Origin: Gemmatimonadota bacterium
GTDB lineage: Bacteria > Gemmatimonadota > Gemmatimonadetes > Gemmatimonadales > GWC2-71-9
Reading direction: 5' to 3'
NCBI GenBank assembly: GCA_041486305.1
Contig: JBGPLG010000001.1
Span: 5,544 to 69,543, forward strand
Length of the DNA: 64,000 nt
Part shown: piece by piece, positions 5,747 through 61,610 of the stretch
How positions within the stretch are numbered: the stretch's first letter is position 1
Layout: each line of letters opens with the position of its first letter
The notes under the pieces: model-generated
The model's database searches: none
Seen by the model: the letters and a program-made list of their open reading frames with translations, nothing else
Told to the model about the DNA's origin: nothing
Made by a program: the position numbers and the translations under genes

Positions 5747-7900
5747 ATGAGATTCGCCATCATCGCGGTCCTGGCGCTCGTCCCGTTTTCAACACTCGCG
5801 GCCCAGGCCGACTCCACCCACGTGGTGCGCGGCGCGGTCCGGGACTCGGCCGGCAAGCCGGTGCCGGGAGTGGATGTGTTCATCCTCAGCACGCTCGAAG
5901 GGGGAGCCACCGACACCCTGGGTCGCTTCGCGTTCCGTAGCTCGGCGCGCGGCCCGGTGACGCTGGTGGCCCGGAAGATCGGTCATCCGCCGGTCCGGCT
6001 GCCGGTGACGCTGCCGTCGGCCGCGCCGGTGGAGATCGTGCTGGAAGCCGAGGCCGTGGCGCTGGAGGAGATTTCCGTGTCGGCGGGCACCTACATCGCC
6101 GGGGAGGAGCGCGGCGCGCAGCTCACCCCGCTCGAGGTGGCCACGACTCCGGGAACCACCGCCGACATCGGGCGCACCATCCAGACCCTTCCCGGCGTAC
6201 AAAGCGTGGATGAAGGGAACGCGCTCTTCGTACGCGGCGGCGACTACCTGGAAACCAAGGTCTTCGTCAACGACGCGTTGCTGCTGAGCGGCTTTCGCTA
6301 CGACAACCCCACCGGCACATTCGCCAACACGCCCAACGCGTTTCTGCTGGACGGGATCTTCTTTTCCTCGGGCGGGTTCGGCGCGAGGTTCGGCAACGCG
6401 CTCTCCGGCTTGGTGAGCCTCCGCACCCTGGGCCGCCCGGTCAAGAACCTCGGCAACCTGAGTGCCGGGTTAGGGGCATTGTCGGCCAGCGGCGGATGGG
6501 CCCCCTCCGCCACGGTGGGGATGCGGGCCACCATCACCCGCTTCAGCACCGGCCCGATCTTCTGGCTCAACGGGACGCCCCGCGAATACGACCCCGCGCC
6601 CAACGGCACCGACGCGAGCGTGAGCGCCACCTGGACCTATCGCCAGAACGGCGAGCTCAAGATCTTCGCGATCGACCAGCTGAACCGGCTGGGCCTCGTG
6701 CAGGATCTGCCCGATGCCACCGACACCTACCGCAACCGGACCCGGAATTCGGTGGCGATCCTCTCCTGGCGCGACACCTTCGGGCGGTTCTCCGAGACCG
6801 CGACCTTCGCGATCGGCAAGCGGCGCCAGAACGAGTCCTTCGGGGGGTTCTTCGACCTGGAGCAGGGGTCCACGCTCGGTAACTTCTTCACCTATGCGGG
6901 TTACGATTTCACGGACCGGGTGACGGTGCGCGCCGGGGACGAGTGGGAGCGTCAGGAAGGAACCTTTTCCGGGCGGAAGGGCGTGGTGCTCGATTCACGG
7001 ACCACCGACGATCGCTTGGCCGCATTCATCGAGTCGGACTGGCGGGTCGGCCAGCGGCTCAAGCTGACACCCGGTCTCAGGACCGACCGGGCGAGCCTTC
7101 CGGGAAAGCGCACCTGGGACCCGCGATTCGCCGCGGCGTGGCTGGTGGGGAACGATGCCACCGTCACCCTGGCGGCGGGTGTCTACCACCAGGTCCCGGA
7201 CCCGCTCTTCTACGACGCCGCGCTGGGCCATCCGGGCCTCGAGCCGATGCGCGCCGATCAGGTGGTCGGCGGGTTCCAGCTCGGCGAGGGCGAGCGGATC
7301 CTCCGCATCGAGGGCTATGCCAAGCGCTACCGACACCTGGCCCAGATGACCCGGGATAATGCCGTGGTTGACGGGGGGGTCGGGACCAGCACGGGCTTCG
7401 ATTTCTTCCTCAAGGGGAGCACAGTCTGGAAGGTGACCGGCCGGCTGGCATACAGCTACATCCACGCCCGGCGCACCGACCCCGACACCGGGATTCCCGC
7501 GCCGGCCCCGGCGGACATCACCCACGCGCTGACACTGGTCCTGGAACGGCCGATCGGCCAGTCGGTCAAATCCGGCATCGCGGCGCATTACGCCACCGGA
7601 CGGCCCTACACCCGCGTAGTCTCCGCGGCCTCGGACCCCTCGGGTAACGGGTTTACCCCTACCTTCGGCCCGCCGATGGGCAGCCGGGTACCGCCGCTCA
7701 TCCGTCTCGACGCCAATGTGAGTAAGATCGTGTCCCTCGGACCCAAGGCGTTCGTGGTGCTCTACGGCTCGGTCAACAACCTGCTGGGACGGGAAAACAT
7801 CTACCAGTACACCTACACCCGCGACTACAGTCGGCGAATCGCCGTACCAAGTCTGTTCAACCGGTCCTTCTATTTCGGCGCGACCCTCACCACCCGGTAA
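5747..7900 (+). CDS. TonB-dependent receptor-like outer-membrane protein with N-terminal carboxypeptidase-regulatory-like domain
   Basis: The ATG at 5747 gives a signal peptide (ALVPFSTLAAQA). A CarboxypepD_reg-like segment (VRGAVRDSAGKPVPGVDV), a plug-like segment (TLPGVQSVDEGNALFVRGG) and a long beta-barrel region follow. Confidence 0.75.
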   Translation: MRFAIIAVLALVPFSTLAAQADSTHVVRGAVRDSAGKPVPGVDVFILSTLEGGATDTLGRFAFRSSARGPVTLVARKIGHPPVRLPVTLPSAAPVEIVLEAEAVALEEISVSAGTYIAGEERGAQLTPLEVATTPGTTADIGRTIQTLPGVQSVDEGNALFVRGGDYLETKVFVNDALLLSGFRYDNPTGTFANTPNAFLLDGIFFSSGGFGARFGNALSGLVSLRTLGRPVKNLGNLSAGLGALSASGGWAPSATVGMRATITRFSTGPIFWLNGTPREYDPAPNGTDASVSATWTYRQNGELKIFAIDQLNRLGLVQDLPDATDTYRNRTRNSVAILSWRDTFGRFSETATFAIGKRRQNESFGGFFDLEQGSTLGNFFTYAGYDFTDRVTVRAGDEWERQEGTFSGRKGVVLDSRTTDDRLAAFIESDWRVGQRLKLTPGLRTDRASLPGKRTWDPRFAAAWLVGNDATVTLAAGVYHQVPDPLFYDAALGHPGLEPMRADQVVGGFQLGEGERILRIEGYAKRYRHLAQMTRDNAVVDGGVGTSTGFDFFLKGSTVWKVTGRLAYSYIHARRTDPDTGIPAPAPADITHALTLVLERPIGQSVKSGIAAHYATGRPYTRVVSAASDPSGNGFTPTFGPPMGSRVPPLIRLDANVSKIVSLGPKAFVVLYGSVNNLLGRENIYQYTYTRDYSRRIAVPSLFNRSFYFGATLTTR

Positions 7901-19017: not shown

Positions 19018-19121
19018 ATCACGTAACTATATGTTTTGAAAGAAGTTATAACTAGAACTACCGGGACCTTCATGCGTCGGTGTTTAACAATATACCTGTT
19101 TGGCGGTTACTGTGCTAGGCT

Positions 19122-19137
19122 GGTTTCACGTGAAACG
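19122..19137. other. parS centromere-like site 1 (GGTTTCACGTGAAACG)
   Basis: 14/16 match to the canonical parS TGTTNCACGTGAAACA. The core GTTTCACGTGAAAC is perfect. It lies about 105 bp upstream of parA. Confidence 0.85.
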
Positions 19138-19262: not shown

Positions 19263-19278
19263 GGTTTCACGTGAAACC
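19263..19278. other. parS centromere-like site 2 (GGTTTCACGTGAAACC, perfect palindrome)
   Basis: It has the same 14-bp core as site 1 and lies 141 bp from it, 20 bp from the mnmG stop. Confidence 0.85.
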
Positions 19279-31154: not shown

Positions 31155-31220
31155 CGATCCCCTGTTCCCCGACCGTGAAGCACCTTGGCACCCGCAGGCT
31201 TCTGGTCCAGTTGAAAACAA

Positions 31221-31249
31221 ATCCTAAGTAAAATAGTCGGGATTGTCAA
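31221..31249 (-). promoter_or_regulatory. putative suf operon promoter
   Basis: On the minus strand: TTGACA (31249-31244), 17 bp, TAGGAT (31226-31221). It lies about 65 nt upstream of the sufB ATG. Confidence 0.4.
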
Positions 31250-31510
31250 AATTGCGGAAGGGATGGAAGGGCAAGGAGTTATAGCCGGTTACCTCGTTTC
31301 GGGATTTGAGGCTCCGGGAATGCCGGCCGACGCGAGGGGTCAGGTCGACCGATCTAGGATCGGACTCGCGAATGAACCTGCGCCTCTCATTAGTAGTTTG
31401 ATATACCACCCCTACAGCATGTCTTCCCAAGTGGCTGGGAGGCTCCCAAATCCCGATTCCTGCTCCGGTTCCTCTTGAGGATTCCTGTTCTTGGCCGGAG
31501 ATTGTCAGAC

Positions 31511-36709: not shown

Positions 36710-37849
36710 GTGACCACCTCGCCTCTGCGACTCATCGAGAACTCCACCGAGTTCGAGACGCTGCTCCGGCGGCTCTGCCAGGCGCCGATGGTGGCGATCG
36801 ATACGGAGGCGGCGAGTTTTCACCGCTACCGCGACCGGGTCTACTTGGTCCAGGTCTCGACCCGCGGCGAGACCCACCTCATCGACCCCCTCGCGGTCCC
36901 GGGGCTCCCGGGCTTCGGGGAGTTGCTGGCCGACCCCGCCATCGAAAAAGTATTTCATGACGCTGATTACGATCTCCGGCTCCTGGGGTACGAGTTCGGG
37001 TTCAAAGCGACCAACCTGTTCGACACCAGGGTCGCGGCCCAGTTCCTGAACGAGCCCGGCATCGGTCTCGCTGCCCTGCTCGAGAAGCACATCGGGGTCA
37101 CCCCAGACAAGCGCTTTCAGCGAGCCGACTGGTCGGCTCGGCCCCTGAGCCAGCCGATGCTCGAGTACGCCGCGATGGACACCCGGCATCTGCCCGACCT
37201 GCGAGACCTGATGCGGGACAAACTGGTCGCACGCGGACGGCTCGAGTGGGTCCTGGAGGAGTGTGCGCTGCTCACCGCGGTGCGCTGGCCGGATCCGGTG
37301 CCTTCGGAAGAAGCCGCACTGACGGTCAAGGGCGTCCGTGCCCTCACCCCCCGGGCCCAGGCGCTTTTCCGCGAGCTCTACCTCTGGCGGGCCCGCACGG
37401 CGGAAGCGCTGGATCGGGCAGCGTTCCGAGTCATGGGGAACGAAACGCTCGTGGCACTCGCCCAACAGCCTCCGGCAGACCAAACGGCCCTCGTGGGCGT
37501 GAAGGGTGTGGGACGCGATATCGCCGAGCGACGCGGAACGGAAATCATGGCCGCGGTCCGACGGGGGCTCGAGCTGCCGGATGCCGAGCTCCCCCGTTTG
37601 CCCCGAGGCCCGCGCCGCCGTCCCGACCCAGTCTTCGATGTGCGGCTCGAACGCCTGAAGGCGCTCCGCACCGGCCTGGCCGCCCGGGAGGATCTGGCCC
37701 CCGGGGTGCTCTGCCCCAATTGGCTACTCGAAGCGATTGCCCGTGCCGCACCGGCGACCCTGGAGGAATTGGGGCAGGTCGAGGGAATCCGTCGCTGGCA
37801 GGTCGGTGCTATCGGGCCGGACCTGCTCAAGGTAATCCCAGCCACGTAG
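36710..37849 (+). CDS. rnd: ribonuclease D (DEDD 3'-5' exonuclease plus HRDC domain)
   Basis: VAIDTEA, HDADYDL and YAAMD exonuclease motifs, with an HRDC-like C-terminus. GTG start. Confidence 0.85.
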   Translation: MTTSPLRLIENSTEFETLLRRLCQAPMVAIDTEAASFHRYRDRVYLVQVSTRGETHLIDPLAVPGLPGFGELLADPAIEKVFHDADYDLRLLGYEFGFKATNLFDTRVAAQFLNEPGIGLAALLEKHIGVTPDKRFQRADWSARPLSQPMLEYAAMDTRHLPDLRDLMRDKLVARGRLEWVLEECALLTAVRWPDPVPSEEAALTVKGVRALTPRAQALFRELYLWRARTAEALDRAAFRVMGNETLVALAQQPPADQTALVGVKGVGRDIAERRGTEIMAAVRRGLELPDAELPRLPRGPRRRPDPVFDVRLERLKALRTGLAAREDLAPGVLCPNWLLEAIARAAPATLEELGQVEGIRRWQVGAIGPDLLKVIPAT

Positions 37850-37862
37850 TTGTAATTACAAC
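37849..37862. repeat. perfect AT-rich palindrome GTTGTAATTACAAC, the core of the motif GTAGTTGTAATTACAACA (37846-37863)
   Basis: It overlaps the rnd stop codon and ends 5 nt before the ATG at 37867. It matches 52904-52921 at 16 of 18 positions. Confidence 0.7.
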
Positions 37863-37866
37863 ATCT

Positions 37867-38547
37867 ATGAGAATCCCGGAACGGCCCCAGACCTTGGGTC
37901 CTCCGGCGGTTCGCGTCGTTCTTTCCAGTCTGACCCAACGCTTCTTCGGTTGGTATCGTCATACGAGTGCAGGCAGAACCGAAGCCCATGCGGCCGCAAG
38001 GGACGGTGTGGTGGACGATACGGATCTGATCGCGGGCGCGCGCGCCGGCGACCGGTTGGCAGCCCGCCGACTCTACGACCGACACGCCCCCCGGGTGTAT
38101 CGGCTGATCTTTCGCATGGTTGGCGAGGAGTCCCTGGCTCAAGAATACACGCAGGACACGTTCGTGAAGGTATTCGACCGATTGGAGCAGTATCGCGGCG
38201 AGTCGGCATTTTCGACCTGGCTGCATTCGGTGGCGATGTCATCGGTCCTGACGGGATTTCGGCGCCGCAAGAGGATTCGGTCCCGGGAGATCGAGCTGGA
38301 GGAAGCGTCGGCGGTGGCCGCGCCACCGGGTGGCTCGGACCCGTACCTGAGGGATCGGTTGACGGCGGAGCTGGAACGGCTCCCGGACCGGCTGCGGATT
38401 CCGGTGGTGCTGCACGACATCGAGGGGTTCACCCATCGGGAGATCGGCGAGATGCTGGACATTCCGCAGGGCACCAGCAAGGCCCGGCTCTTTGAAGCGC
38501 GAGCACGACTGCGCGACGCGCTGGCCGGCGTCGCGACAGAGCAGTGA
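37867..38547 (+). CDS. ECF-family RNA polymerase sigma factor
   Basis: Region 2 (RLYDRHAPRVYRLIFRMVG..AQEYTQDTFVKVF) and region 4 (EGFTHREIGEMLDIPQGTSKARL). The start is ambiguous: ATG 37867 (leaderless geometry) or GTG 38008 (AAGGGA Shine-Dalgarno, 179 aa). Confidence 0.85.
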   Translation: MRIPERPQTLGPPAVRVVLSSLTQRFFGWYRHTSAGRTEAHAAARDGVVDDTDLIAGARAGDRLAARRLYDRHAPRVYRLIFRMVGEESLAQEYTQDTFVKVFDRLEQYRGESAFSTWLHSVAMSSVLTGFRRRKRIRSREIELEEASAVAAPPGGSDPYLRDRLTAELERLPDRLRIPVVLHDIEGFTHREIGEMLDIPQGTSKARLFEARARLRDALAGVATEQ

Positions 38548-43824: not shown

Positions 43825-44603
43825 GGGGTGATCACTTCGCGGATTGTTCCGAGTGGTAGTTCGTACAACAACGTCAACGTCGAGCGATCCCTCTGGCTCA
43901 GAATGGCTGTCCGGGTTACCGGGAACATGACGTCGTCGGGATTGGGTGAGTGCGCCAACCCCATCGCGTGGCCGATCTCGTGTACTGCCACGGCGAGGAG
44001 GCCGCGGCCTGGGATGGGCCGGCCGGCCTGATCTCGCCGCGCCAGCGTAATCACCGCGGAGTGAATCAGACCATCCCTCGACCATTGAAGGTCGGTCTGG
44101 CCCGCCCGCTCTCCGGCAAGCTGGTCGCTCCCTCGCACCAGGATCTGGGCGCCGGTCGTGTCGGAAGTCACGCTGAAGCGAAGGCCCAGCCCGGCGGCCT
44201 CCCAGGTGGCCACCGCCTGGTGCAGCACCGCCACGAGCCCGGCATCGTACCGGGCCGAGTCTCCGGGAGGGATGGCGATGACAAAGGGCGCTCCGGTCCG
44301 GTCGGGCCACCGGCGCACCACCGAATCGGTTTCGGCGAACAATGAATCGAAATAAGTCGTTCGGGTGGCCCGGACCAGGCGGCGGCGGCCTTCGAGGCGC
44401 GCCAGCAGATCGATGGTTGGGGTGCCGGCGGGCTGCAGGACCGGCGTGAGAACGGGGGCGGGCGGCGGAAGCGGCCTTGGTCCGGGCGGCCGAATCACCT
44501 CGATGGCCTTAACCGCGGGCCCCGCCACGGCGGGACGGTTGAGCCGACCGATCAGGAGAAGCGCGAGAAGCACCGCGAGCGCGAGCAGGAGGGAGCGCGA
44601 CAT
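43821..44603 (-). CDS. matrixin-like (M10) zinc metalloprotease
   Basis: Starts at MSRSLLLALAVLL. HEIGHAMGLAHS zinc-binding motif. Confidence 0.8.
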   Translation of the reverse strand: MSRSLLLALAVLLALLLIGRLNRPAVAGPAVKAIEVIRPPGPRPLPPPAPVLTPVLQPAGTPTIDLLARLEGRRRLVRATRTTYFDSLFAETDSVVRRWPDRTGAPFVIAIPPGDSARYDAGLVAVLHQAVATWEAAGLGLRFSVTSDTTGAQILVRGSDQLAGERAGQTDLQWSRDGLIHSAVITLARRDQAGRPIPGRGLLAVAVHEIGHAMGLAHSPNPDDVMFPVTRTAILSQRDRSTLTLLYELPLGTIREVITP

Positions 44604-47088: not shown

Positions 47089-49920
47089 CTAGCTCTTTGC
47101 GTCGAGCCAGTTGTCTCCTACTCCCACATCCACGACCAGCGGTACCTCCAGCGACGCCGCGCCTTCCATGTGCGCTTTGACCAGCGCCGCGACCGGCTCG
47201 ACTTCCTCCGCCGGCGCCTCGAGCACCAGCTCGTCGTGGACCTGGAGGAGCAGCCGGCCCGCGAATCCGCCATCCCGCAGCGCGCCGTGGAGGCGGGCCA
47301 TGGCAATCTTGATCAGGTCGGCGGCGGAGCCCTGAAGCGGGGCGTTCTGGGCCTGGCGCTCCCCGAACGCCCGCACGTTGAAGTTGCGGTCGTGCACCTC
47401 GGGGATATACCTGCGCCGGCCGAAGAGGGTCTCCACGTACCCGCGCTCGCGGGCAATCTCGACCTGCCGATCGAGGAACCGCCGGACTCCGGAAAACCGC
47501 CGGAAGTACTCGGCGATGAACGCCTTGGCCTCTTCCTGGGGAATCGAGAGCTGCTTCGACAGCGCGAAGGGGCCCTGGCCGTAGATCGTGCCGAAATTGA
47601 TGGTCTTGGCGCGGGCTCGCATGTCCGGGGTCACCGCCGGAAGCGGCACATCGAAGATGATCGCCGCCGTCTGGCGATGGATGTCCTGTCCCTGCCGGAA
47701 GGCCTCGATGAAGGCGGGGTCGAGGGAGAGGTGGGCCATCAGACGCAGCTCGATCTGCGAATAGTCCGCCACCACGAACTTCCACCCCGGTTGCGGCACG
47801 AAGCCGCGGCGGATGGCCTCACCGCGGGGGGAGCGCACCGGGATGTTCTGCAGGTTGGGGTCGGTCGAGGAGAGCCGCCCCGTCGCGGCGCCGATCTGAT
47901 TGAAGCTGGTGTGGATCCGGCCGGTGGATTTGTTGATGGCCCTGGGAAGCACGTCGACATAGGTGGAGCGGAGCTTTTCCAGCTCGCGATAGTCCAGCAG
48001 GAGCTTGGGCACCAGGTGCCCCATCTCGGCGAGCTGCTCGAGCACATCGGCGTCGGTCGAGGGGCCGGTCTTGGTGCGCTTGAGCGCAGGGAGCTGAAGC
48101 CTCTCGAACAGCACCGCGGCGAGCTGTTTCGGGCTGTTCAAATTGACCGAACCGCCTGCCGCGACCGCGATTTCGGCTTCGAGCCGCTGCAGGTCGGCGG
48201 CGAGCTCCTTGGCGAGGCGACCGAACAGCCCGGGATCGATCGCGATGCCGACCCACTCCATGTCAACCAAGACCTCGACCAGGGGCATCTCCAGTCCGTC
48301 CAGCAGCGGCTGCATCGCCGATTCGGCCAGCCGGGGCAGGAAGAGCCGGTGCAACGCGAGGACAATGGCGCTGTCGGTGCCGCAATACTCCGCCGCGTCG
48401 GCAATCGCCACCTCGGCAAAGGGAATCCGGGCCTTTCCCTTCCCCGTGAGGTCGTCATAGCTCCGCATCGGCCGGCTCAGCAGCTCGAGCGCGAGGGTGT
48501 CGATCCCATGCGAGCGGCGGCCCGGGTCCAGCAGAAAGCTGGCCAGCATCGAATCGTAGACCACCCCCTTGAGCTCGACGCCGGCCCGACGGAGCACCTG
48601 CCAGTCGTACTTGATGTTGTGCCCGGCCTTCTTCACCGCCGGATCCCGCAGCAGCGCGGCGATCGGAGCGAGTGCGGGATCGGTGAGGGGAGGGAGGTTG
48701 GTCACCGGGGCCGGCGCGGCCAACTCCCCGCCCCGCGGCAGATGCCCGAACGGCAAGTACCACGCGGTTTCCGGGTCCACCGCGAGGGAAAGGCCTACCA
48801 GCTCGGCATCGCGGGGATCGAGCGAGGTGGTCTCGGTGTCGATGGCAATGAGGGGAGCGGCGCGGAGCGCCAGCGCCAAGGCCTCAATCTGCTCGGGGCC
48901 GTCGACGACCCGCACGCACGACGCCGGTGCGGTGGGGAGCGTTGCCGGCACCGGCGGCACCGGGCCCGCCGGGGCGAGGGCCTCGATCGCCGGATCAGCC
49001 GGGGCCTCGGACCGACCACCGGCTTCGGTGAGCCGCTTGGCAAGGGAATGAAACTCCAGCCGGGCCAGGACCTTGACCAGCGCGTCGGTATCGGGCTCCC
49101 GCATGGCCGCCGTCCCGATGTCCAGATCGACGGGCACATCGCATTGGATGGTGACCAGCTCACGGGAAAGCCGGGCTTCCGCCGCATACTGCGCCAGCGC
49201 CTCCCGCGGGCGCTTGGCCTTGATCTCGCCCGCCCTAGCCAGGAGGGTTTCCAGGTTGCCGTACTCGGTCAGGAGCTGCACCGCCCCCTTGTCGCCGATC
49301 CCCCGGACTCCCGGCACATTGTCCGAGCTGTCGCCGACCAGGGCCAGGTAATCCGCCACTTGATGCGGCGGTACCCCCAGTCGCTCGGAAGCGTTGGTCT
49401 CATCGACCCACATCTCGTCGACGCCGCCGGGACCTCCCCGGCCCGGATTGAGCAGCGAGATCCCGGGCCCGATGAGCTGGTAGAAATCCTTGTCGCCCGA
49501 AACGATCACCACCTGGCGACCCGCCGCGGCCTCCCGCTTGGCCACGGTGCCGATCACGTCGTCGGCTTCATAGCCCTGCACCGCGAGCGCGGGAATGCGG
49601 AATGCCGTCAGCAGCGCGCCGATCTGTTCCAGCGCGGTGTCGAAGTCGGCCTGGAGCTCCGAATCGAGTTTCTCGCGGGTGGACTTGTATTCGGCGTAGC
49701 GCTGGGTGCGGAACGAGTCGCCCGCGTCCAGAACCCAGACCAGGTAGTCAGGACGGTACTTGGACTGGAGCCGCAGCAGGAAATTGACCACGCCCCAGGC
49801 CGCGGAGGTGTTCTCCCCGCGGCTGGTCCGGAGCGGCCGGGTGATCAGGGCGAAGAATGCGCGATAAATGAGCGCGTAACCATCAACCAGGAAGAGCTGG
49901 GGCGGTACGTGGTTGGACAT
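47089..49920 (-). CDS. polA: DNA polymerase I
   Basis: 5'-nuclease domain, 3'-5' exonuclease-like domain, and a family-A polymerase domain (DYSQIELR, QVHDE). Confidence 0.96.
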   Translation of the reverse strand: MSNHVPPQLFLVDGYALIYRAFFALITRPLRTSRGENTSAAWGVVNFLLRLQSKYRPDYLVWVLDAGDSFRTQRYAEYKSTREKLDSELQADFDTALEQIGALLTAFRIPALAVQGYEADDVIGTVAKREAAAGRQVVIVSGDKDFYQLIGPGISLLNPGRGGPGGVDEMWVDETNASERLGVPPHQVADYLALVGDSSDNVPGVRGIGDKGAVQLLTEYGNLETLLARAGEIKAKRPREALAQYAAEARLSRELVTIQCDVPVDLDIGTAAMREPDTDALVKVLARLEFHSLAKRLTEAGGRSEAPADPAIEALAPAGPVPPVPATLPTAPASCVRVVDGPEQIEALALALRAAPLIAIDTETTSLDPRDAELVGLSLAVDPETAWYLPFGHLPRGGELAAPAPVTNLPPLTDPALAPIAALLRDPAVKKAGHNIKYDWQVLRRAGVELKGVVYDSMLASFLLDPGRRSHGIDTLALELLSRPMRSYDDLTGKGKARIPFAEVAIADAAEYCGTDSAIVLALHRLFLPRLAESAMQPLLDGLEMPLVEVLVDMEWVGIAIDPGLFGRLAKELAADLQRLEAEIAVAAGGSVNLNSPKQLAAVLFERLQLPALKRTKTGPSTDADVLEQLAEMGHLVPKLLLDYRELEKLRSTYVDVLPRAINKSTGRIHTSFNQIGAATGRLSSTDPNLQNIPVRSPRGEAIRRGFVPQPGWKFVVADYSQIELRLMAHLSLDPAFIEAFRQGQDIHRQTAAIIFDVPLPAVTPDMRARAKTINFGTIYGQGPFALSKQLSIPQEEAKAFIAEYFRRFSGVRRFLDRQVEIARERGYVETLFGRRRYIPEVHDRNFNVRAFGERQAQNAPLQGSAADLIKIAMARLHGALRDGGFAGRLLLQVHDELVLEAPAEEVEPVAALVKAHMEGAASLEVPLVVDVGVGDNWLDAKS

Positions 49921-49932
49921 GCCTGTAAAGTA

Positions 49933-49973
49933 GCGAGTAGCAAGTAGCGAGTCCCTCGCTATTCGCTACTCGC
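49933..49973. terminator. hairpin with GTAGCGA/GTAGCAA tandem-heptamer arms
   Basis: 17 of 19 bp pair around a 3-nt loop. It lies between the GWxTD gene stop and the polA start. Confidence 0.65.
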
Positions 49974-49990
49974 CACCGGTGCCTCGCCAA

Positions 49991-51494: not shown

Positions 51495-52400
51495 ATGAGC
51501 CAAGATAATCTCGTCGGCCGGACTGTGGCCGGATACAAACTCCTCTCGCATGTCGGCGAAGGTGGCACCGCCACCGTCTATCGCGCGGAGCATTCCGAGC
51601 GGGGGCCGGCGGCCATAAAGATCCTGCGCCCCCGCATGGCGCAGGATCCCGTGGCCGTCAAGCGCTTTCTCCGCGAGGCGGAGTTCGGGGCCCGCATCAA
51701 TCACAAGTACATCATCCGCACCTACGATTTCGGCGAGGCCGAGGGCCTGTATTACCTGGCCCTCGAATGGGCCCAGGGCGAGCCGCTTGGCACGTTCCTG
51801 AGCGCGGCCGGGCGACTGGCTCCGCCGCTCGCCGCCAGGATCATCGAGCAGCTCGGCGCCGCGCTGGAAGTGGCGCACAAGGCCGGCATCATCCACCGCG
51901 ACCTGAAGCCCGCCAACATCATGTACGATCCGGAGACGCAGACCGCGCGGCTCCTGGATTTCGGCATCGCGCGAGACGCGGAGGACAATCCGGCCGACCG
52001 GTTGACCCGCGCGGGGTTCTTCGTGGGCACCTTGCAGTACGTGGCCCCCGAAGCCCTCTCGGGAGAGCTGGTGGGCGAGCAGGCCGATGTCTATAGCCTG
52101 GCGACCATCGCCTACCACCTGCTTACCGGCATACTACCCTTCCCCGGGCGCAGCCCGCGCGAACTCTTCCAGCAGCTGCTGACCCAGTCTCCGATTCCGC
52201 TCAACGAAGCCGTGAAGGGGCTCAAGTTCACGAAAGAGATCGAAGCCGCGGTAATGACCGGCCTCGAGCGGGATCTGACGAAGCGCTGGAAGACCGTAGG
52301 AGGGTTCGCCCGAGCGTTCTGCGCCGCGGCAGGCGCGGAGGCAGCGCCGGAAAAGAAGGGCGGCTTCCTCTCTTCGTTCTTCCGCCGAGGCAGCGAGTGA
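51495..52400 (+). CDS. Ser/Thr protein kinase (kinase domain plus short tail, 301 aa)
   Basis: GEGGTATVY, AIK, HRDLKPANI and DFG motifs. Its stop overlaps the pyrE GTG (GTGA). Confidence 0.9.
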   Translation: MSQDNLVGRTVAGYKLLSHVGEGGTATVYRAEHSERGPAAIKILRPRMAQDPVAVKRFLREAEFGARINHKYIIRTYDFGEAEGLYYLALEWAQGEPLGTFLSAAGRLAPPLAARIIEQLGAALEVAHKAGIIHRDLKPANIMYDPETQTARLLDFGIARDAEDNPADRLTRAGFFVGTLQYVAPEALSGELVGEQADVYSLATIAYHLLTGILPFPGRSPRELFQQLLTQSPIPLNEAVKGLKFTKEIEAAVMTGLERDLTKRWKTVGGFARAFCAAAGAEAAPEKKGGFLSSFFRRGSE

Positions 52401-52945
52401 CCGATCAGGAGGCGCTCGCGGCACTGCTCCGCGAGCGCTCCGTCAGCCTGGGCGATTTCCTGCTTTCCTCCGGCCAGCGCTCCACCTACTACATCGACGC
52501 CCGCAAGACCACCATGTCCGCCGAGGGCCAGCGCTTGATCGGGAGACTCGGCCTGGCGGCCATCCGGGCCGCAGGTTGGCGGCCCGCATCGGTGGGCGGA
52601 CTGACCATGGGGGCCGACCCGGTGGCCTACGCGATCGCCCGGGAGAGCTTGGACGCGCCCCCCCTCATCCAGGCGTTCAGTGTACGGAAGACGGTCAAAG
52701 ATCACGGTACCCGCCGACGCATCGAGGGGAATTTCTCGTCGGGTGACACCGTGGTGATCGTAGAAGACGTGATCACGCTGGGTGGCTCTGCAGCCGAGGC
52801 AATCGACTCGGTGACCGAGGCCGGAGGCCGGGTGCTGGGTGTTCTGGCCGTTGTCGACCGCGAACAAGGCGGCCGGGAAAAACTCCAAGCGAGAGGAATT
52901 AAAGTAGTTGTATTAACAACAACTAGCGAACTCAGCCTGGGCTAG
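52397..52945 (+). CDS. pyrE: orotate phosphoribosyltransferase
   Basis: PRPP-binding loop VVIVEDVITLGGS and an N-terminal FLLSSGQRSTYYID motif. Confidence 0.9.
   Translation: MTDQEALAALLRERSVSLGDFLLSSGQRSTYYIDARKTTMSAEGQRLIGRLGLAAIRAAGWRPASVGGLTMGADPVAYAIARESLDAPPLIQAFSVRKTVKDHGTRRRIEGNFSSGDTVVIVEDVITLGGSAAEAIDSVTEAGGRVLGVLAVVDREQGGREKLQARGIKVVVLTTTSELSLG
52904..52921. repeat. second copy of the AT-rich motif (GTAGTTGTATTAACAACA), inside the pyrE 3' end
   Basis: 16/18 identical to 37846-37863. It is encoded with A/T-ending codons that are atypical for this sequence. Confidence 0.65.
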
Positions 52946-57195: not shown

Positions 57196-57224
57196 CCAGG
57201 GCGGCGCTTCCACCGTATAGTTCT

Positions 57225-57610
57225 GGCACGGGTCGAACGCGATGGTCGCGGGGGAACGCGAGTTCCCCCGAGGAAAGTCCGAGCTCCAACGGGTAGACTG
57301 CCAGGTAACGCCTGGGCGCCGAGAGGCGACGGACAGGGCCACAGAAAACAGACCGCCTCACGCAAGTGAGGTAAGGGTGAAACGGTGGGGTAAGAGCCCA
57401 CCGCGCTCCTGGCAACAGCGAGCGGCACGGCAACCCCCAGTCGGAGCAAGGCCAAATAGGCGGCGAGGTGTGGCCCACACCGACAACACCGGCAACGGTG
57501 AGCCGCGGGTAGGCTGCTCGAGGTGGCCGGCGACGGCCATCCCAGACAGATGACCATCCTTCGCGCGGAAGCGCGGGGAACAGAACTCGGCTTACGGTTC
57601 GACCCGTGCC
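57225..57610 (+). ncRNA. rnpB: RNase P RNA, bacterial type A
   Basis: Universal elements are present: GAGGAAAGTCCGAGCTCC, ACAGAAAACAGACCGCC, GGTAAGGGTGAAA, GGTAAGAGCCCACC, CAGACAGATGA and ACAGAACTCGGCTTAC. The P1 helix pairs GGCACGGGTCGAAC with GTTCGACCCGTGCC. A TATAGT -10-like box lies at 57216-57221. Confidence 0.92.
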
Positions 57611-57646
57611 CCCGGCGTCCCCCAAGGACGCCGGGGGTTGAAGTTT
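57609..57646 (+). terminator. Rho-independent terminator after rnpB
   Basis: CCCCCGGCGTCC-CCCAA-GGACGCCGGGGG followed by TTGAAGTTT. Confidence 0.8.
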
Positions 57647-58500: not shown

Positions 58501-59360
58501 GACCAGGCTTTCTGGGTGCCTGCGCGGCGGCCCTGGTGGGCGCGTGCGCAGGTACCAAGGGCTCGGCGCCGCCGGAGCCGGTCAGCGGAGCCCAGCCCAT
58601 AGCGGTACCGGCGGCGCCGAGCCCCCCGATCCACTACCGTCTGCGCACCCCCTTGGTGTATGAAGTGGAGCGATATGACAGCCTGTTCTACGCCAGCATG
58701 CCGGGCGCACCCCAGGCAACCGCCAAACGTGCCGTTCTGACTGCCCTGCCGCTCACCAGCCGGGGCAGTGACGTTGAAGTCCGGCTCGATTCCCTGTTGG
58801 CGCTTGAGGACACCCGGCTGACCTCGACTAGCGTCGACAGCAGCGTCGGGCGCCGCTGGCAATTCACGCTCGGCCCGACCGGCCCCAAAGGGGTGATGCT
58901 GGGGGGTCATCCGACGATTCTCTCGGGCCAAATCGAGGCGATCGTCAGGTTGTTGTTTCCGCAACTACCGTCGGAAGGCCTCCGGAGTCTGGATACCTGG
59001 AGCGATTCGACCTCGTACCGAGTGCAGCTTGATGCCTTCGATGCGTTCGAGACGGCGGTCCGGACCAGTCAGTCGGTGCCAGGCGTCGCGCAGACCGGCC
59101 AAGGCTCCGGGGTGTCGGTGGAGGCAAACGAGCGGCTCACCCGCACCGGCACGGCGATGCAGGCCGGCCAGGTCATGACCCTTAGAGGCGCTGGACTGCG
59201 CCGGTTGCGCTACGAGTTTGGTTCGGATGGCTGGGTCAGCGCCCTGACCGCACGAGACTCGCTCGACCTGGTCGTGACGGTCGGACCGGCGGGCGAAACG
59301 GTTCCCGTCCGCTGGCGCTCGACTCTGATCGGTCGACTGCGTGACCTACCCGTTCGCTGA
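58497..59360 (+). CDS. hypothetical lipoprotein, paralog 2 of a tandem pair
   Basis: The GTG start overlaps the previous stop (GTGA). Lipobox LVGACAG. Several blocks align by eye with paralog 1 (YR.., VDSL/LDSL, LFP, ..SDG../..TDG..). Confidence 0.6.
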   Translation: MRPGFLGACAAALVGACAGTKGSAPPEPVSGAQPIAVPAAPSPPIHYRLRTPLVYEVERYDSLFYASMPGAPQATAKRAVLTALPLTSRGSDVEVRLDSLLALEDTRLTSTSVDSSVGRRWQFTLGPTGPKGVMLGGHPTILSGQIEAIVRLLFPQLPSEGLRSLDTWSDSTSYRVQLDAFDAFETAVRTSQSVPGVAQTGQGSGVSVEANERLTRTGTAMQAGQVMTLRGAGLRRLRYEFGSDGWVSALTARDSLDLVVTVGPAGETVPVRWRSTLIGRLRDLPVR

Positions 59361-60274: not shown

Positions 60275-61387
60275 TCAATCCACCAGCCGAAGCGGCATCA
60301 CCAGCGTCATGAAGCTCGCCGGATCATCCCAGCCCACCGGCTCGCAGGTCGCGGCGCGCTCGGGGGCTTTGAAGGTCATGCGTACCTCGTCGGTGGGCAT
60401 GTACTTCAGGATCTCGAGCATGTAGGCCGCGTTGAAGCCGATTTCCAGGGAGTCGCCCTCGTAGGCTACCGCCAGTTCCTCCTGGGCCTCGCCCAGGTCC
60501 GGGGTCTGGACCGACATCTTGCAGGCGCCGTTGGTGAACGCCATCCGGATCCGGTGGGTCTGGTCACTCGCCACGATGCTCATACGGCGGAGGGCCGCGG
60601 CCAGCGCGGCTTTATCGGCAGTGAGGCTCTTGTCGTTCTCCCGCGGGATTACCTGTTCGTAGTTTGGGTAGGGGCCCTCGATCAGACGGGTGTAGATCTG
60701 CGTGGTGGTCGATCGGAACCCGAGGTGGTTGTCGCTCTTCCCGATTTCGATCTCCTCGTCGCCCCCGAAGAGCCGGCGAATCTGATCCAGCGCCTTGGGC
60801 GGGATGATCAGATCCGCCTGTCCGCCGCCCTGGCCGCTGGTCGGTACATCCATGCGCGCCAGTCGGTGCCCGTTGGTGGCGACCATCCGCATCCGGTCGG
60901 CGCGGAGCTCCCAGAGCACCCCGTTCAGAATCGGGCGGCTCTCCTCGGTGCTGGCGGCAAAGGCGACGTGGCTGATCAGCTTCTGCAGATCCTTGGCCGC
61001 CACCTTCCAGCCCCCCTCGAACTTGACGGTGGGGAAGGCGGGGAACTCGTCCCGGGACAGGCCCAGGAGCTTGAACTTGGACTTGCCGCACTCGATGCTG
61101 GCGCGCTGCTCGCCGGAGCTGGTCATCCGGATAGCGGCGTTGGGGAGCTCCTTCACGATCTCGACCAGTTTGCGGGCCGGGAGCGTCGTGGCGCCCTCCT
61201 GGTCAACCGAGGCCGGTATGGTGGTGCTCACCGAGATGTCGAGATCCGTGCCGGAGAGCTTGAGCCCGTCCTTGGATGCCTCGACCAGAATGTTGGCCAG
61301 CACGGGAAGCGTAGTCTTCGAAGGCACGCTTGCCGCGACCGCCCCGAGACCTTCATGGAGTTTTTCCCGCGTGATCGTGAACTTCAT
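60275..61387 (-). CDS. dnaN: DNA polymerase III beta sliding clamp
   Basis: Starts at MKFTITREKL (61387). Full-length three-domain DnaN similarity. Confidence 0.96.
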   Translation of the reverse strand: MKFTITREKLHEGLGAVAASVPSKTTLPVLANILVEASKDGLKLSGTDLDISVSTTIPASVDQEGATTLPARKLVEIVKELPNAAIRMTSSGEQRASIECGKSKFKLLGLSRDEFPAFPTVKFEGGWKVAAKDLQKLISHVAFAASTEESRPILNGVLWELRADRMRMVATNGHRLARMDVPTSGQGGGQADLIIPPKALDQIRRLFGGDEEIEIGKSDNHLGFRSTTTQIYTRLIEGPYPNYEQVIPRENDKSLTADKAALAAALRRMSIVASDQTHRIRMAFTNGACKMSVQTPDLGEAQEELAVAYEGDSLEIGFNAAYMLEILKYMPTDEVRMTFKAPERAATCEPVGWDDPASFMTLVMPLRLVD

Positions 61388-61610
61388 CCGAAAGCTCCCC
61401 GCAAAGCCCAATAAGAAGAGACTACTTACAGATAGTTATACCTAGCAGCAGTAGTAGAGGAGCTGAAGATGTGGACATGGTCCGCAAGTGACGTGTCCAC
61501 CGGCTCATCCCTTGTTTGGTCGCGTGGGGATCGTGTTGGCATTGGGGATAGATGCGCCCCCGCTGTGCCCTTATCCCCGATCGTCCACAGGACCACATAC
61601 GCCGAAGCGA
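61388..61610. other. candidate oriC module (dnaA-dnaN spacer): AT-rich patch plus a cluster of degenerate DnaA boxes
   Basis: AT-rich stretch at about 61410-61460. 9-mers matching TTATCCACA/TGTGGATAA at 7/9: 61470-78 TGTGGACAT, 61543-51 TGGGGATAG, 61571-79 TTATCCCCG, 61581-89 TCGTCCACA. Weaker 6/9 matches at 61493-501 and 61525-33. Confidence 0.5.

What the first reader, a model, noticed from the sequence alone, without database searches (positions are those of the whole stretch)
37846..37863. Perfect 14-bp AT-rich palindrome (GTTGTAATTACAAC) bridging the rnd stop codon and the ECF sigma gene, with a near-identical copy 15 kb away
In sequence of roughly 70% GC, GTAGTTGTAATTACAACA stands out. 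It overlaps the rnd TAG and ends 5 nt before the ATG at 37867. A 16/18-identical copy lies at 52904-52921, and a 14/17 relative (GTAGTTCTAGTTATAAC, minus strand, about 19034-19050) lies upstream of parA. Its symmetry suggests a dimeric DNA-binding protein site overlapping the sigma promoter. Alternatively it is simply a -10/discriminator element of a leaderless promoter.
Basis: seen in the sequence. Interest (0 to 1): 0.55.

Follow-up and report, generated by a model that had tools for sequence, protein, structure and literature searches.

The report
Conserved operator palindrome, likely TrmB-type regulator
The AT-rich palindrome at the end of rnd is real. It is one of six copies in this window of a conserved protein-binding DNA motif, most likely the operator of a TrmB-family transcription factor, and it is neither the sigma gene's promoter nor a chance sequence.

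Summary
The sequence is as described: GTAGTTGTAATTACAACA at 37846-37863, overlapping the rnd stop codon.

The palindrome belongs to a motif family with a fixed frame, (TA)GTAGTWG-N6-CWAC(TAC). The window holds six copies, at 19.0, 31.4, 37.8, 43.9, 52.9 and 58.9 kb.

Evidence that the copies are selected:
- Positions are conserved across Gemmatimonadales. The copy upstream of def is present in 35 of 45 loci. The copy at the rnd stop is present in 10 of 10 loci where the ECF sigma operon follows rnd, and in 1 of 64 where it does not.
- Two copies lie inside genes and are written in rare AT-ending codons that close relatives keep.

The six copies do not fold into stable hairpins, and no fixed -35/-10 geometry accompanies them. 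The sigma gene has its own conserved ECF-type promoter about 70 nt further downstream.

In metagenomes the motif recurs next to TrmB-family regulator genes. Four such genes picked by protein similarity alone all carry the motif just upstream.

Best reading: an operator of a bacterial TrmB-like regulator. I could not show that the source genome encodes this regulator. The copies inside genes, the copies between convergent genes, and the clustering near the replication origin remain unexplained.

The parts
37844..37865 (.). The reported motif copy (ACGTAGTTGTAATTACAACATC). Core palindrome 37849-37862. Overlaps the rnd stop codon.
   Evidence: Sequence. Weight-matrix score 29.9 bits. An orthologous copy sits at the rnd stop in L001-L012, L020 and L021. 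It occurs in 10 of 10 loci with the sigma operon downstream and 1 of 64 without.
52902..52923 (.). Motif copy inside the 3' end of pyrE (AAGTAGTTGTATTAACAACAAC). Its codons are K V V V L T T T, written with rare AT-ending codons.
   Evidence: Score 33.8 bits. None of 20000 synonymous recodings of the peptide reached that score (maximum 25.6). GTA GTT GCA TTA ACA is kept in relatives with 87-90% protein identity, L081-L084. Distant orthologues use GC-rich codons and have no site here.
19040..19061 (.). Motif copy upstream of parA (minus strand: GTAGTTCTAGTTATAAC at 19045-19061). It overlaps the -35 region of a putative parA promoter, TAGTTA-N17-TATAGT.
   Evidence: Score 20.1 bits; not used to build the matrix. 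The promoter assignment is my reading of the sequence.
31391..31412 (.). Degenerate motif copy (TAGTAGTTTGATATACCACCCC) in the divergent spacer between sufB and def.
   Evidence: Score 22.4 bits. The orthologous copy is present in 35 of 45 Gemmatimonadales loci that contain def with enough upstream sequence.
43853..43874 (.). Motif copy (minus strand: ACGTTGTTGTACGAACTACCAC) about 80 nt upstream of the beta-lactamase-fold gene plus sufT (DUF59) operon.
   Evidence: Score 19.9 bits; not used to build the matrix. Orthologous copies occur in L001, L002, L003, L008, L010, L012 and L020 and in L081 (14.2 bits).
58949..58970 (.). Motif copy inside an ORF of unknown function, 58656-59360 (minus strand: CGGTAGTTGCGGAAACAACAAC). 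On the plus strand it encodes R L L F P Q L P with the rare codons TTG TTG CAA CTA.
   Evidence: Score 17.2 bits. None of 20000 synonymous recodings reached 15 bits. The site is kept in L083 (14.5 bits) and L081 (17.0 bits).
36710..37849 (+). rnd (ribonuclease D). Its stop codon lies inside the motif.
   Evidence: PF01612 and PF00570. Homologues are named ribonuclease D in Gemmatimonadales.
37934..37960 (+). ECF-type promoter of the sigma operon (CCCAAC-N17-CGTC), probably autoregulated and distinct from the palindrome.
   Evidence: Sequence. The same CCAAC(C)...CGTC arrangement is visible in L002, L008-L012, L020 and L021. The promoter assignment is inferred from the general ECF promoter pattern.
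38008..38547 (+). ECF sigma factor gene, with the most likely start at GTG 38008.
   Evidence: Sigma70_r2 and r4_2 domains. Start chosen by the codon model. Relatives align from residue 1.

Best explanation
The palindrome is a double-stranded DNA operator. It is one copy of a motif family with the consensus (A)TAGTAGTTG-N6-CAACTACTA(T), in which GTAG and CWAC are nearly invariant, the centre is AT-rich, and the spacing is fixed. The protein that binds it is most likely a dimer of a bacterial TrmB-family winged-helix regulator.

Shown:
- The motif is non-random, keeps its position, and is under DNA-level selection.
- In other bacteria it lies at or just downstream of the promoters of TrmB-family regulator genes, the typical position for self-repression.
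- It is also linked to pyrE, greA, the def/suf spacer and sufT.

Inferred:
- The source genome encodes an orthologue of this regulator somewhere outside the window.
- That orthologue binds all six window copies.
- At the rnd/sigma junction, binding controls expression of the ECF sigma operon, either from about 70 nt upstream of its ECF-type -35 element or by blocking read-through from rnd.
- At parA, binding overlaps the -35 region and would repress.

The signal the regulator responds to is unknown. A four-cysteine motif in some family members, together with redox, metal and Fe-S genes among neighbours and targets, hints at a redox or metal signal.
For: 1. Fixed architecture. Thirty-four instances align without gaps. 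G1 T2 A3 G4, C14 and A16 C17 are present in 29-34 of 34, with an AT-rich centre and flanks.
2. Copy number. Six window sites score above every simulated window.
3. Positional conservation across an order: def copy 35 of 45 loci; rnd copy 10 of 10 with the sigma operon against 1 of 64 without.
4. Selection inside coding sequence. The pyrE and ORF58656 copies use rare codons, and none of 20000 synonymous recodings reached the observed scores. Relatives keep these codons. Copies inside the kinase gene and a DUF255 gene are kept across diverged contigs.
5. Not an RNA element. The six copies fold weakly, at -0.7 to -6.9 kcal/mol with z-scores from -2.0 to +2.1. Their orientation relative to the host gene is mixed.
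6. Link to a regulator. Of 86 distinct motif-seeded metagenome sites, 10 abut a PF01978 TrmB-family gene.
7. Independent test. Four TrmB-like homologues were chosen by protein similarity only, two of them named as KSB1 and Chloroflexota. All four carry the motif 13-70 nt upstream of the start codon, for example ATAGTAGTTGTATATACAACTACTAT in L329.
8. Operator-like placement. In L247 (TTGACA-17-TATACT) and L330 (TTGACA-17-TATATT) the motif starts at or just after the -10 element.
9. Family precedent. Archaeal TrmB proteins bind palindromes with TACT/AGTA half-sites and autoregulate (PMC4158304). The nearest solved structures are TrmB 3QPH and TrmBL2.
Against: - No TrmB-family gene was found in the window or in 1.3 Mb of Gemmatimonadales loci, and I could not search the rest of the source genome. 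The regulator's presence there is unproven.
- The taxa of most regulator-bearing contigs are unknown; the two named ones are KSB1 and Chloroflexota.
- Several conserved copies are not upstream of any gene. The pyrE copy faces a convergent gene, L073 has a copy between convergent genes, and some copies are deep inside ORFs.
- The half-sites are arranged AGTA...TACT, the inverse of the archaeal TACT-N3-AGTA, and the spacing differs.
- Two motif-adjacent genes in metagenome loci are MarR-type, not TrmB-type.
- No binding or expression data exist.
Confidence: 0.6

Rival explanations
1. The motif is an operator, but of a different regulator in Gemmatimonadales. Candidates are the SufR-like ArsR-type protein encoded next to the def-proximal copy in most loci, or a MarR-type protein. 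On this view the TrmB association seen in other phyla does not carry over.
For: In most distant loci a SufR-like HTH gene lies 136-265 nt from the def-proximal copy. MarR-type genes abut the motif in L281 and L283. No TrmB gene has been shown in any Gemmatimonadales sequence.
Against: The window clade keeps the motif but has no sufR at that locus. The suf promoter has its own, different conserved element. The cyanobacterial SufR box is CAAC-N6-GTTG, the opposite arrangement (PMC8593673). The 9-bp half-site TAGTAGTTG is identical to the one in front of TrmB-like genes in other phyla.
Confidence: 0.15
2. The copies are high-affinity sites for an architectural or roadblock protein, in the manner of the archaeal chromatin protein TrmBL2. 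Such a protein would organise or insulate the origin-proximal region rather than regulate single promoters.
For: Six copies lie in the 40 kb between parA/parS and dnaN-dnaA. None lies in the flanking 19 kb or in the 14 kb on the other side, which includes 9 kb beyond the window. Density is 1 per 94 kb in the flanks of motif-seeded metagenome loci. Copies occur inside genes and between convergent genes. TrmBL2 binds both coding and intergenic DNA (PMC4158304).
Against: The background density comes from mixed taxa. The rnd loci have 1 site per 15 kb, which makes the clustering only marginal. The strict co-occurrence with the sigma operon and the placement over regulator-gene promoters are typical of gene regulation. 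The position of oriC in this genome is not established.
Confidence: 0.12
3. The element is itself a promoter, either symmetric and bidirectional or leaderless. The arm TAGTAG would serve as a weak -35, and the TAT(A/T)(A/T)N that follows the right arm would serve as the -10.
For: A -10-like hexamer (TATAAA, TATTAT, TATGAT, TATGAG) follows the right arm at most rnd/sigma copies. L329 has a perfect TATAAT there. Two other putative promoters in the window have -35 hexamers starting with TAG, at RNase P RNA and parA. In many metagenome loci the start codon lies 0-10 nt after the motif with no Shine-Dalgarno sequence.
Against: No position outside about 5 nt on either side of the motif is conserved. 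In L247 and L330 a separate canonical TTGACA-17-TATAnT promoter lies upstream of the motif. The motif-to-start distance ranges from 0 to more than 200 nt. Copies occur inside genes and at convergent 3' ends. The GTAG/CTAC conservation far exceeds what a -35 or -10 element needs.
Confidence: 0.08
4. The motif acts as an RNA or single-stranded DNA hairpin: a terminator, a processing site, or an intercistronic coupling element that joins the stop codon in its left arm to a start codon after its right arm.
For: The motif often overlaps a stop codon and precedes a start codon in co-directional gene pairs, such as rnd/ATG 37867 and the kinase/pyrE junctions. Some copies have perfect 6-8 bp arms.
Against: Folding is weak and no better than shuffled sequence for the six window copies. 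The arm sequences are conserved, not covarying. The best-conserved copies lie in divergent spacers where no transcript ends. Canonical GC-rich terminators exist in the same genome. Orientation relative to transcription is mixed.
Confidence: 0.05

Closest known systems
Archaeal TrmB-family operators: TACT-N3-AGTA (Pyrococcus/Thermococcus TrmB), TACT-N7-8-GAGTA (Halobacterium VNG1451C), TATCAC-N5-GTGATA (TrmBL1/Tgr)
   Same: They are palindromic and lie at or near the transcription start, and some of these regulators autoregulate (PMC4158304). The tetranucleotides TACT and AGTA occur in the arms here too. The adjacent regulators here carry the same PF01978 winged-helix domain and are closest to the solved structures TrmB 3QPH and TrmBL2.
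   Different: Here the half-sites are arranged AGTA...TACT (TAGTAGTTG-N6-CAACTACTA), which is the inverse orientation, with longer arms and different spacing. The hosts are bacteria. The C-terminal domains are diverged, and some carry a C-x3-C-x3-C-x2-C motif. The targets are pyrE, greA, def/suf, sufT, an ECF sigma operon and parA rather than sugar metabolism genes.
Cyanobacterial SufR box, CAAC-N6-GTTG
   Same: It uses the same tetranucleotides and the same 6-nt spacer as the core GTTG-N6-CAAC. One conserved copy here lies in the spacer next to the suf operon, beside a SufR-like gene in many loci (PMC8593673).
   Different: The arms are in the opposite order, so it is a different palindrome. 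Most copies here are unrelated to suf, and the window clade has the motif but no adjacent sufR.
Xanthomonadales LexA box, TTAG-N6-TACTA (TTAGTAGTAATACTACTAA). Recalled from memory; not found in the searchable library.
   Same: The arm sequence is nearly identical (TTAGTAGT / ACTACTAA).
   Different: The arms there are 3 nt apart, against 7 nt here for the same arms. No SOS genes such as lexA, recA or uvrA are associated with the motif in any locus examined.
parS, the ParB binding site
   Same: It is a short palindrome, lies near the origin, tolerates being inside genes, and keeps its position.
   Different: The canonical parS sequence occurs separately, twice, at 19122-19137 and 19263-19278, and its sequence is unrelated.
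REP elements recognised by RAYT transposases (GTAG head plus an imperfect palindrome). Properties recalled from memory.
   Same: A GTAG/CTAC tetranucleotide at the ends of a short palindrome, mostly outside genes.
   Different: REP elements are high-copy, GC-rich, mobile and not conserved in position. This motif is low-copy (1 per 15-94 kb), keeps its position across an order, and also occurs inside genes.

Membership tests
Operator of a TrmB-family (PF01978) regulator | The motif lies in the promoter region of the regulator's own gene (autoregulation). | tested here: met
   Ten of 86 distinct motif-seeded metagenome sites abut a PF01978 gene. Four of four homologues chosen by protein similarity alone carry the motif 13-70 nt upstream of the start. 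This was met in other bacteria, not in the source genome.
Operator of a TrmB-family (PF01978) regulator | The genome that carries the sites encodes the regulator. | not testable with these tools
   There is no TrmB-like gene in the window or in the 86 Gemmatimonadales loci. The rest of the source assembly (GCA_041491445.1) could not be read.
Operator of a TrmB-family (PF01978) regulator | Palindrome with TACT/AGTA half-sites arranged as in the characterised archaeal members. | tested here: inconclusive
   TACT and AGTA are present in the arms, but in the inverse order and with different spacing (one search compared with PMC4158304).
Operator of a TrmB-family (PF01978) regulator | Direct binding of the protein to the site. 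| not testable with these tools
   This needs EMSA, DAP-seq or ChIP-seq.
Sigma-70-type or leaderless promoter | -35 and -10 hexamers 16-18 nt apart at a fixed distance from the motif, and a start site or start codon 5-9 nt after the -10. | tested here: not met
   There is no conserved position beyond about 5 nt on either side of the motif. The consensus scan finds no promoter at 37.8 kb. The distance to the start codon is variable.
ECF sigma autoregulated promoter | An AAC-containing -35 and a CGT-containing -10 about 16-17 nt apart, upstream of the sigma gene. | tested here: not met
   Such a promoter exists at 37934-37960 and is conserved in relatives, but it is a separate element downstream of the palindrome.
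Intrinsic terminator or structured RNA hairpin | A stable stem (and a U-tract for terminators), with structure conserved through covariation. | tested here: not met
   Folding energies are -0.7 to -6.9 kcal/mol with z-scores from -2.0 to +2.1. The arm sequence is conserved, not covarying. Rfam gives no match there.
Cyanobacterial SufR box | CAAC-N6-GTTG in the spacer between sufR and sufB. | tested here: not met
   The core here is GTTG-N6-CAAC, against CAAC-N6-GTTG in PMC8593673.
parS | Match to TGTTNCACGTGAAACA. | tested here: not met
   The only parS-like sites are at 19122 and 19263.
REP / RAYT repeats | High copy number, strictly extragenic, position not conserved. | tested here: not met
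   Density is 1 site per 15 kb in the rnd loci and 1 per 94 kb elsewhere. Position is conserved. Some copies are inside genes.

The most novel reading that the evidence does not exclude
The six copies packed between parA/parS and dnaN-dnaA include copies written into coding sequence and copies between convergent genes. They may be nucleation or roadblock sites for a TrmBL2-like DNA-organising protein that structures or insulates the origin-proximal domain of the Gemmatimonadales chromosome. That would be a sequence-specific origin-domain system distinct from ParB/parS.
Probability: 0.12. Interest if true: 0.75.

Novelty: new variant of a known kind. Interest (0 to 1): 0.5.

Why it matters
TrmB-family regulators are well studied in archaea, but my literature searches found no described bacterial regulon or operator for them.

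If the reading holds, it gives three things:
- a testable motif-regulator pair shared by several poorly studied soil phyla, namely Gemmatimonadota, KSB1 and Chloroflexota;
- a first regulatory handle on housekeeping genes of Gemmatimonadales (parAB, def/suf, sufT, pyrE and an ECF sigma operon);
- a clear example of a binding site kept inside coding sequence through rare codons.

The copies away from promoters and the clustering near the origin could point to a role beyond ordinary repression.

Tried and rejected
Readings rejected:
- Sigma-70 or leaderless promoter: no fixed -35/-10 geometry.
- Bacteroidetes-type TAnnTTTG promoter and sigma-54 promoter: the spacings do not fit (read from the sequences).
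- Terminator or RNA hairpin: weak folding and no Rfam match.
- 'Variable loop length', my own early reading: withdrawn. It was an artefact of the 3-nt TAG/TAC repeats, and all instances align in one fixed frame.
- LexA box: the gene downstream of the best-conserved copy is def, not lexA, and no SOS genes are in the window.
- SufR box: opposite arrangement.
- parS and DnaA boxes: separate or absent.
- Resemblance of GTTGTAA to the E. coli Ter core: judged a coincidence (memory only).
- REP elements: copy number and positional conservation do not fit.
- The enrichment of GTAGTTGTA with one mismatch (13 hits against 1.2 expected) is mostly reverse-strand Tyr/Asn codons and is not informative.

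Dead ends:
- Taxonomic assignment of the contigs carrying the regulator through cluster names gave only KSB1 and Chloroflexota.
- Two contig look-ups returned no DNA, and one window protein was not on record.
- A plain motif scan of viral contigs returned only AT-rich chance hits, median GC 37%. The metagenome scan therefore needed a filter for GC-rich flanks.
Full report
**1. The observation**

The sequence is as reported. GTAGTTGTAATTACAACA lies at 37846-37863, and the perfect palindrome GTTGTAATTACAAC at 37849-37862. It overlaps the TAG of an ORF at 36710-37849, which is ribonuclease D: a 3'-5' exonuclease domain plus two HRDC domains, with homologues named ribonuclease D in Gemmatimonadales.

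The second copy, at 52904-52921, matches 16 of 18 positions. The third is at 19045-19061 on the minus strand, not about 19034-19050. Shuffles predict 0.18 matches to the palindrome with up to 3 mismatches; there are 3.

**2. Setting**

The window comes from a Gemmatimonadales genome. A near-identical NCBI contig is JBGPUZ010000003.1 of GCA_041491445.1.

It covers the region around the replication-initiation genes:
- dnaA 61611-62996 and dnaN 60275-61411, both on the minus strand;
- gidA, parA and parB at 17.3-21.2 kb;
- two parS-like sites at 19122 and 19263.

The organism uses ordinary sigma-70 promoters, for example sufB with TTGACA-17-TAGGAT and RNase P RNA with the -10 TATAGT. It also uses ordinary GC-rich terminators. 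The palindrome is therefore not simply what promoters or terminators look like in this genome.

**3. A motif family with a fixed frame**

In the 80 rnd loci fetched from species-representative genomes, the closest relatives all carry a related inverted repeat at the rnd stop.

At first the distance between GTAG and CTAC looked variable (3, 6, 9 or 12 nt), which suggested a hairpin. That impression came from the 3-nt repeats TAG TAG and TAC TAC. All instances align without gaps as (TA)GTAGTWG-N6-CWAC(TAC). GTAG, C14 and A16 C17 are present in 29-34 of 34 instances, and the centre and about 5 nt on each flank are AT-rich.

A weight matrix built from these 34 instances finds six sites in the window:

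| Site | Score (bits) | Location |
|---|---|---|
| 19040 | 20.1 | upstream of parA |
| 31391 | 22.4 | sufB/def spacer |
| 37844 | 29.9 | rnd stop |
| 43853 | 19.9 | upstream of beta-lactamase-fold gene plus sufT |
| 52902 | 33.8 | inside pyrE |
| 58949 | 17.2 | inside ORF 58656-59360 |

The best score in 30 simulated windows of 64 kb was 15.8 bits. Three of the six sites (19040, 43853, 58949) were not used to build the matrix.

**4. Conservation and selection**

- The copy upstream of def is present in 35 of 45 loci that contain def with enough upstream sequence, including distant ones with 57-60% rnd identity.
- The copy at the rnd stop is present in 10 of 10 loci where the ECF sigma operon follows rnd, and in 1 of 64 where it does not. 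The single exception, L001, has a deletion that left only a remnant of the downstream HEAT-repeat gene.
- The pyrE copy encodes K V V V L T T T as AAA GTA GTT GTA TTA ACA ACA ACT. Each of the seven Val, Leu and Thr codons makes up 0.3-7% of its synonymous family in this genome, and AAA makes up 13% of Lys codons. None of 20000 synonymous recodings reached the observed score. Relatives at 87-90% protein identity keep GTA GTT GCA TTA ACA. Orthologues at 62-70% identity use GC-rich codons and lack the site.
- The copy in ORF 58656-59360 uses TTG TTG ... CAA CTA and is also kept in relatives.
- Distant Gemmatimonadales instead keep a copy inside the Ser/Thr kinase gene, 209 nt before pyrE. In the window the same peptide, ELFQQLL, is written in GC-rich codons and there is no site.

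**5. What the motif is not**

- Not a hairpin. The six window copies fold at only -0.7 to -6.9 kcal/mol, no better than shuffled sequence, and the arms are conserved in sequence instead of covarying.
- Not a promoter. Nothing outside the element is conserved at a fixed distance.
- Not the sigma promoter. A conserved ECF-type promoter, CCCAAC-N17-CGTC at 37934-37960, lies about 70 nt downstream of the palindrome.
- The ATG at 37867 is probably not the sigma start. The stretch 37867-38007 has low third-position GC (my count), the codon model picks GTG 38008, and relatives align from that residue.

**6. Who binds it**

I scanned metagenome contigs for TAGTAGTTG-N5-ACWACT with a filter for GC-rich flanks. 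This returned 120 loci with a median GC of 65%.

The 86 distinct sites in GC-rich loci fall into these contexts:

| Context | Sites |
|---|---|
| kinase/pyrE junction | 14 |
| inside the kinase gene, before pyrE | 15 |
| inside a DUF255 thioredoxin-like gene, 204-207 nt before greA | 11 |
| next to a TrmB-family winged-helix gene | 10 |
| other non-coding positions | 32 |
| other coding positions | 3 |
| next to pyrE, other arrangement | 1 |

The TrmB assignment rests on PF01978 matches at E-values of 1e-16 to 1e-20.

As an independent test, I took four TrmB-like homologues chosen only by protein similarity and contig length; one is labelled KSB1 and one Chloroflexota. All four have the motif 13-70 nt upstream of their start codon:
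- L329: ATAGTAGTTGTATATACAACTACTAT
- L330: TTGACA-17-TATATT followed directly by AGTAGTTATAAAAACAACTAC
- L331: ATAGTAGCTGCTACAGCGACTACTAT
- L332: TTAGTAGTAGTTATAACTACTACTAA

In L247 and L330 the motif starts at or just after a canonical -10 element, the usual place for a self-repressing operator.

Archaeal TrmB proteins bind TACT/AGTA palindromes, and some autoregulate (PMC4158304). The nearest solved structures are TrmB 3QPH and TrmBL2.

**7. Mechanism proposed**

A dimeric TrmB-like regulator binds the palindrome.
- At parA the site overlaps the putative -35 (TAGTTA-17-TATAGT), so binding would repress.
- At rnd/sigma the strict co-occurrence with the sigma operon argues that the site controls that operon. 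It could do so from upstream of the ECF-type promoter, or by blocking read-through from rnd.

These functional steps are inferred, not shown.

The signal is unknown. Three of the regulators carry C-x3-C-x3-C-x2-C. Their neighbours and targets include RIC/ScdA, a Pyr_redox_2 oxidoreductase, GTP cyclohydrolase I, a multicopper oxidase, an HMA ATPase, suf, sufT, ferredoxin and a DUF255 thioredoxin-like protein. A thiol-based TrmB-family oxidative-stress regulator is known in Haloferax (PMC9426492). A redox or metal signal is therefore a lead and nothing more.

**8. What remains open**

- No TrmB-like gene is in the window or in the 86 Gemmatimonadales loci, and the rest of the source genome could not be read.
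- Several conserved copies are not upstream of any gene.
- The six window copies lie within 40 kb, with none in the flanking 33 kb. Density is 1 per 94 kb in the flanks of motif-seeded loci and 1 per 15 kb in the rnd loci.

These points keep an architectural or roadblock role alive as a minority reading.

**9. Comparison and novelty**

The element works like a transcription-factor operator and is closest to archaeal TrmB operators, but its half-site order, spacing, hosts and targets differ.
- It is not the cyanobacterial SufR box (CAAC-N6-GTTG; PMC8593673).
- It is not parS, REP, a promoter or a terminator.
- Its arms resemble the Xanthomonas LexA box, recalled from memory, but the spacing differs and no SOS genes are involved.

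Literature searches found no description of this motif or of a bacterial TrmB regulon.

Verdict: a real, conserved and selected regulatory DNA site. It is a new variant of a known kind, of moderate interest.

Noticed in passing
window 57229-57610 (+): Bacterial RNase P RNA class A (Rfam RF00010, 291.9 bits). A -10-like TATAGT lies at 57217-57222, and a GC-rich terminator hairpin follows at about 57600-57640.
   Followed up: partly
window 19122-19137 and 19263-19278: Two parS-like palindromes, GGTTTCACGTGAAAC(G/C), lie in the 286-nt gidA-parA spacer, 60 nt from the parA-proximal motif copy. parAB is followed by an M23 peptidase gene and a bactofilin gene.
   Followed up: partly
window 31214-31249: A 30-nt element, AATCCTAAGTAAAATAGTCGGGATTGTCAA, overlaps the sufB sigma-70 promoter and is nearly invariant in relatives. 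A similar sequence precedes sufT in distant loci (L035, L070). It is probably the operator of an Fe-S regulator and is distinct from the palindrome.
   Followed up: partly
window 37934-37960: An ECF-type promoter, CCCAAC-N17-CGTC, lies upstream of the sigma gene and is conserved in about 10 relatives. It implies that the sigma gene starts near GTG 38008, not at ATG 37867.
   Followed up: partly
window about 49921-49975 (minus strand, just upstream of polA): An array of GC-richer GTAG/CTAC repeats (GAGTAGCGAATAGCGAGGGACTCGCTACTTGCTACTCGCTACTTT) ends 6 nt before the polA start codon. It scores below the motif-matrix threshold, and its relation to the motif family is unclear.
   Followed up: no
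window 48063-48157: ARAGORN calls a 95-nt tRNA-Phe inside the polA coding sequence on the opposite strand. It is probably a false positive.
   Followed up: no
window 51525-52945; loci L015, L016, L031, L034, L044, L046, L048, L055, L064: A Ser/Thr kinase gene immediately followed by pyrE is a conserved gene pair in Gemmatimonadales. The motif sits inside the kinase gene (209 nt before pyrE), in the junction, or in the pyrE 3' end, depending on lineage. The site moves but stays near pyrE.
   Followed up: partly
metagenome loci L219, L222, L227, L230, L236, L242, L243, L265, L268, L299: A motif copy is written into the codons R V V V A D T T T of a DUF255 thioredoxin-like gene, always 204-207 nt before greA. 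This is nearly the same distance as the kinase-gene copy lies before pyrE.
   Followed up: partly
L316:497-1384, L247:1175-2032, L298:310-1185: Three TrmB-like regulators next to the motif share a C-x3-C-x3-C-x2-C motif in their C-terminal domain. TrmB-like genes are often followed by GTP cyclohydrolase I and a Pyr_redox_2/AIF_C oxidoreductase (L329, L330, L332), or lie beside a RIC/ScdA gene (L297, L316).
   Followed up: partly
L332 about 5917-5934: A second palindrome, ATAGTACTAAAGTACTAT (TACT-N2-AGTA, close to the archaeal TrmB site), lies about 25 nt upstream of the main motif in front of a Chloroflexota TrmB-like gene.
   Followed up: no
L001 6542-6850: In the closest species-representative relative, the sigma, anti-sigma and HEAT-repeat genes after rnd are deleted. 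Only a C-terminal fragment of the HEAT-repeat gene remains, and the motif at the rnd stop is retained.
   Followed up: partly
L043 8114-8137 and 11047-11070: An unrelated perfect palindrome, GGGTATACAAGTACTTGTATACCC, occurs twice, 2.9 kb apart, in one Gemmatimonadales locus.
   Followed up: no
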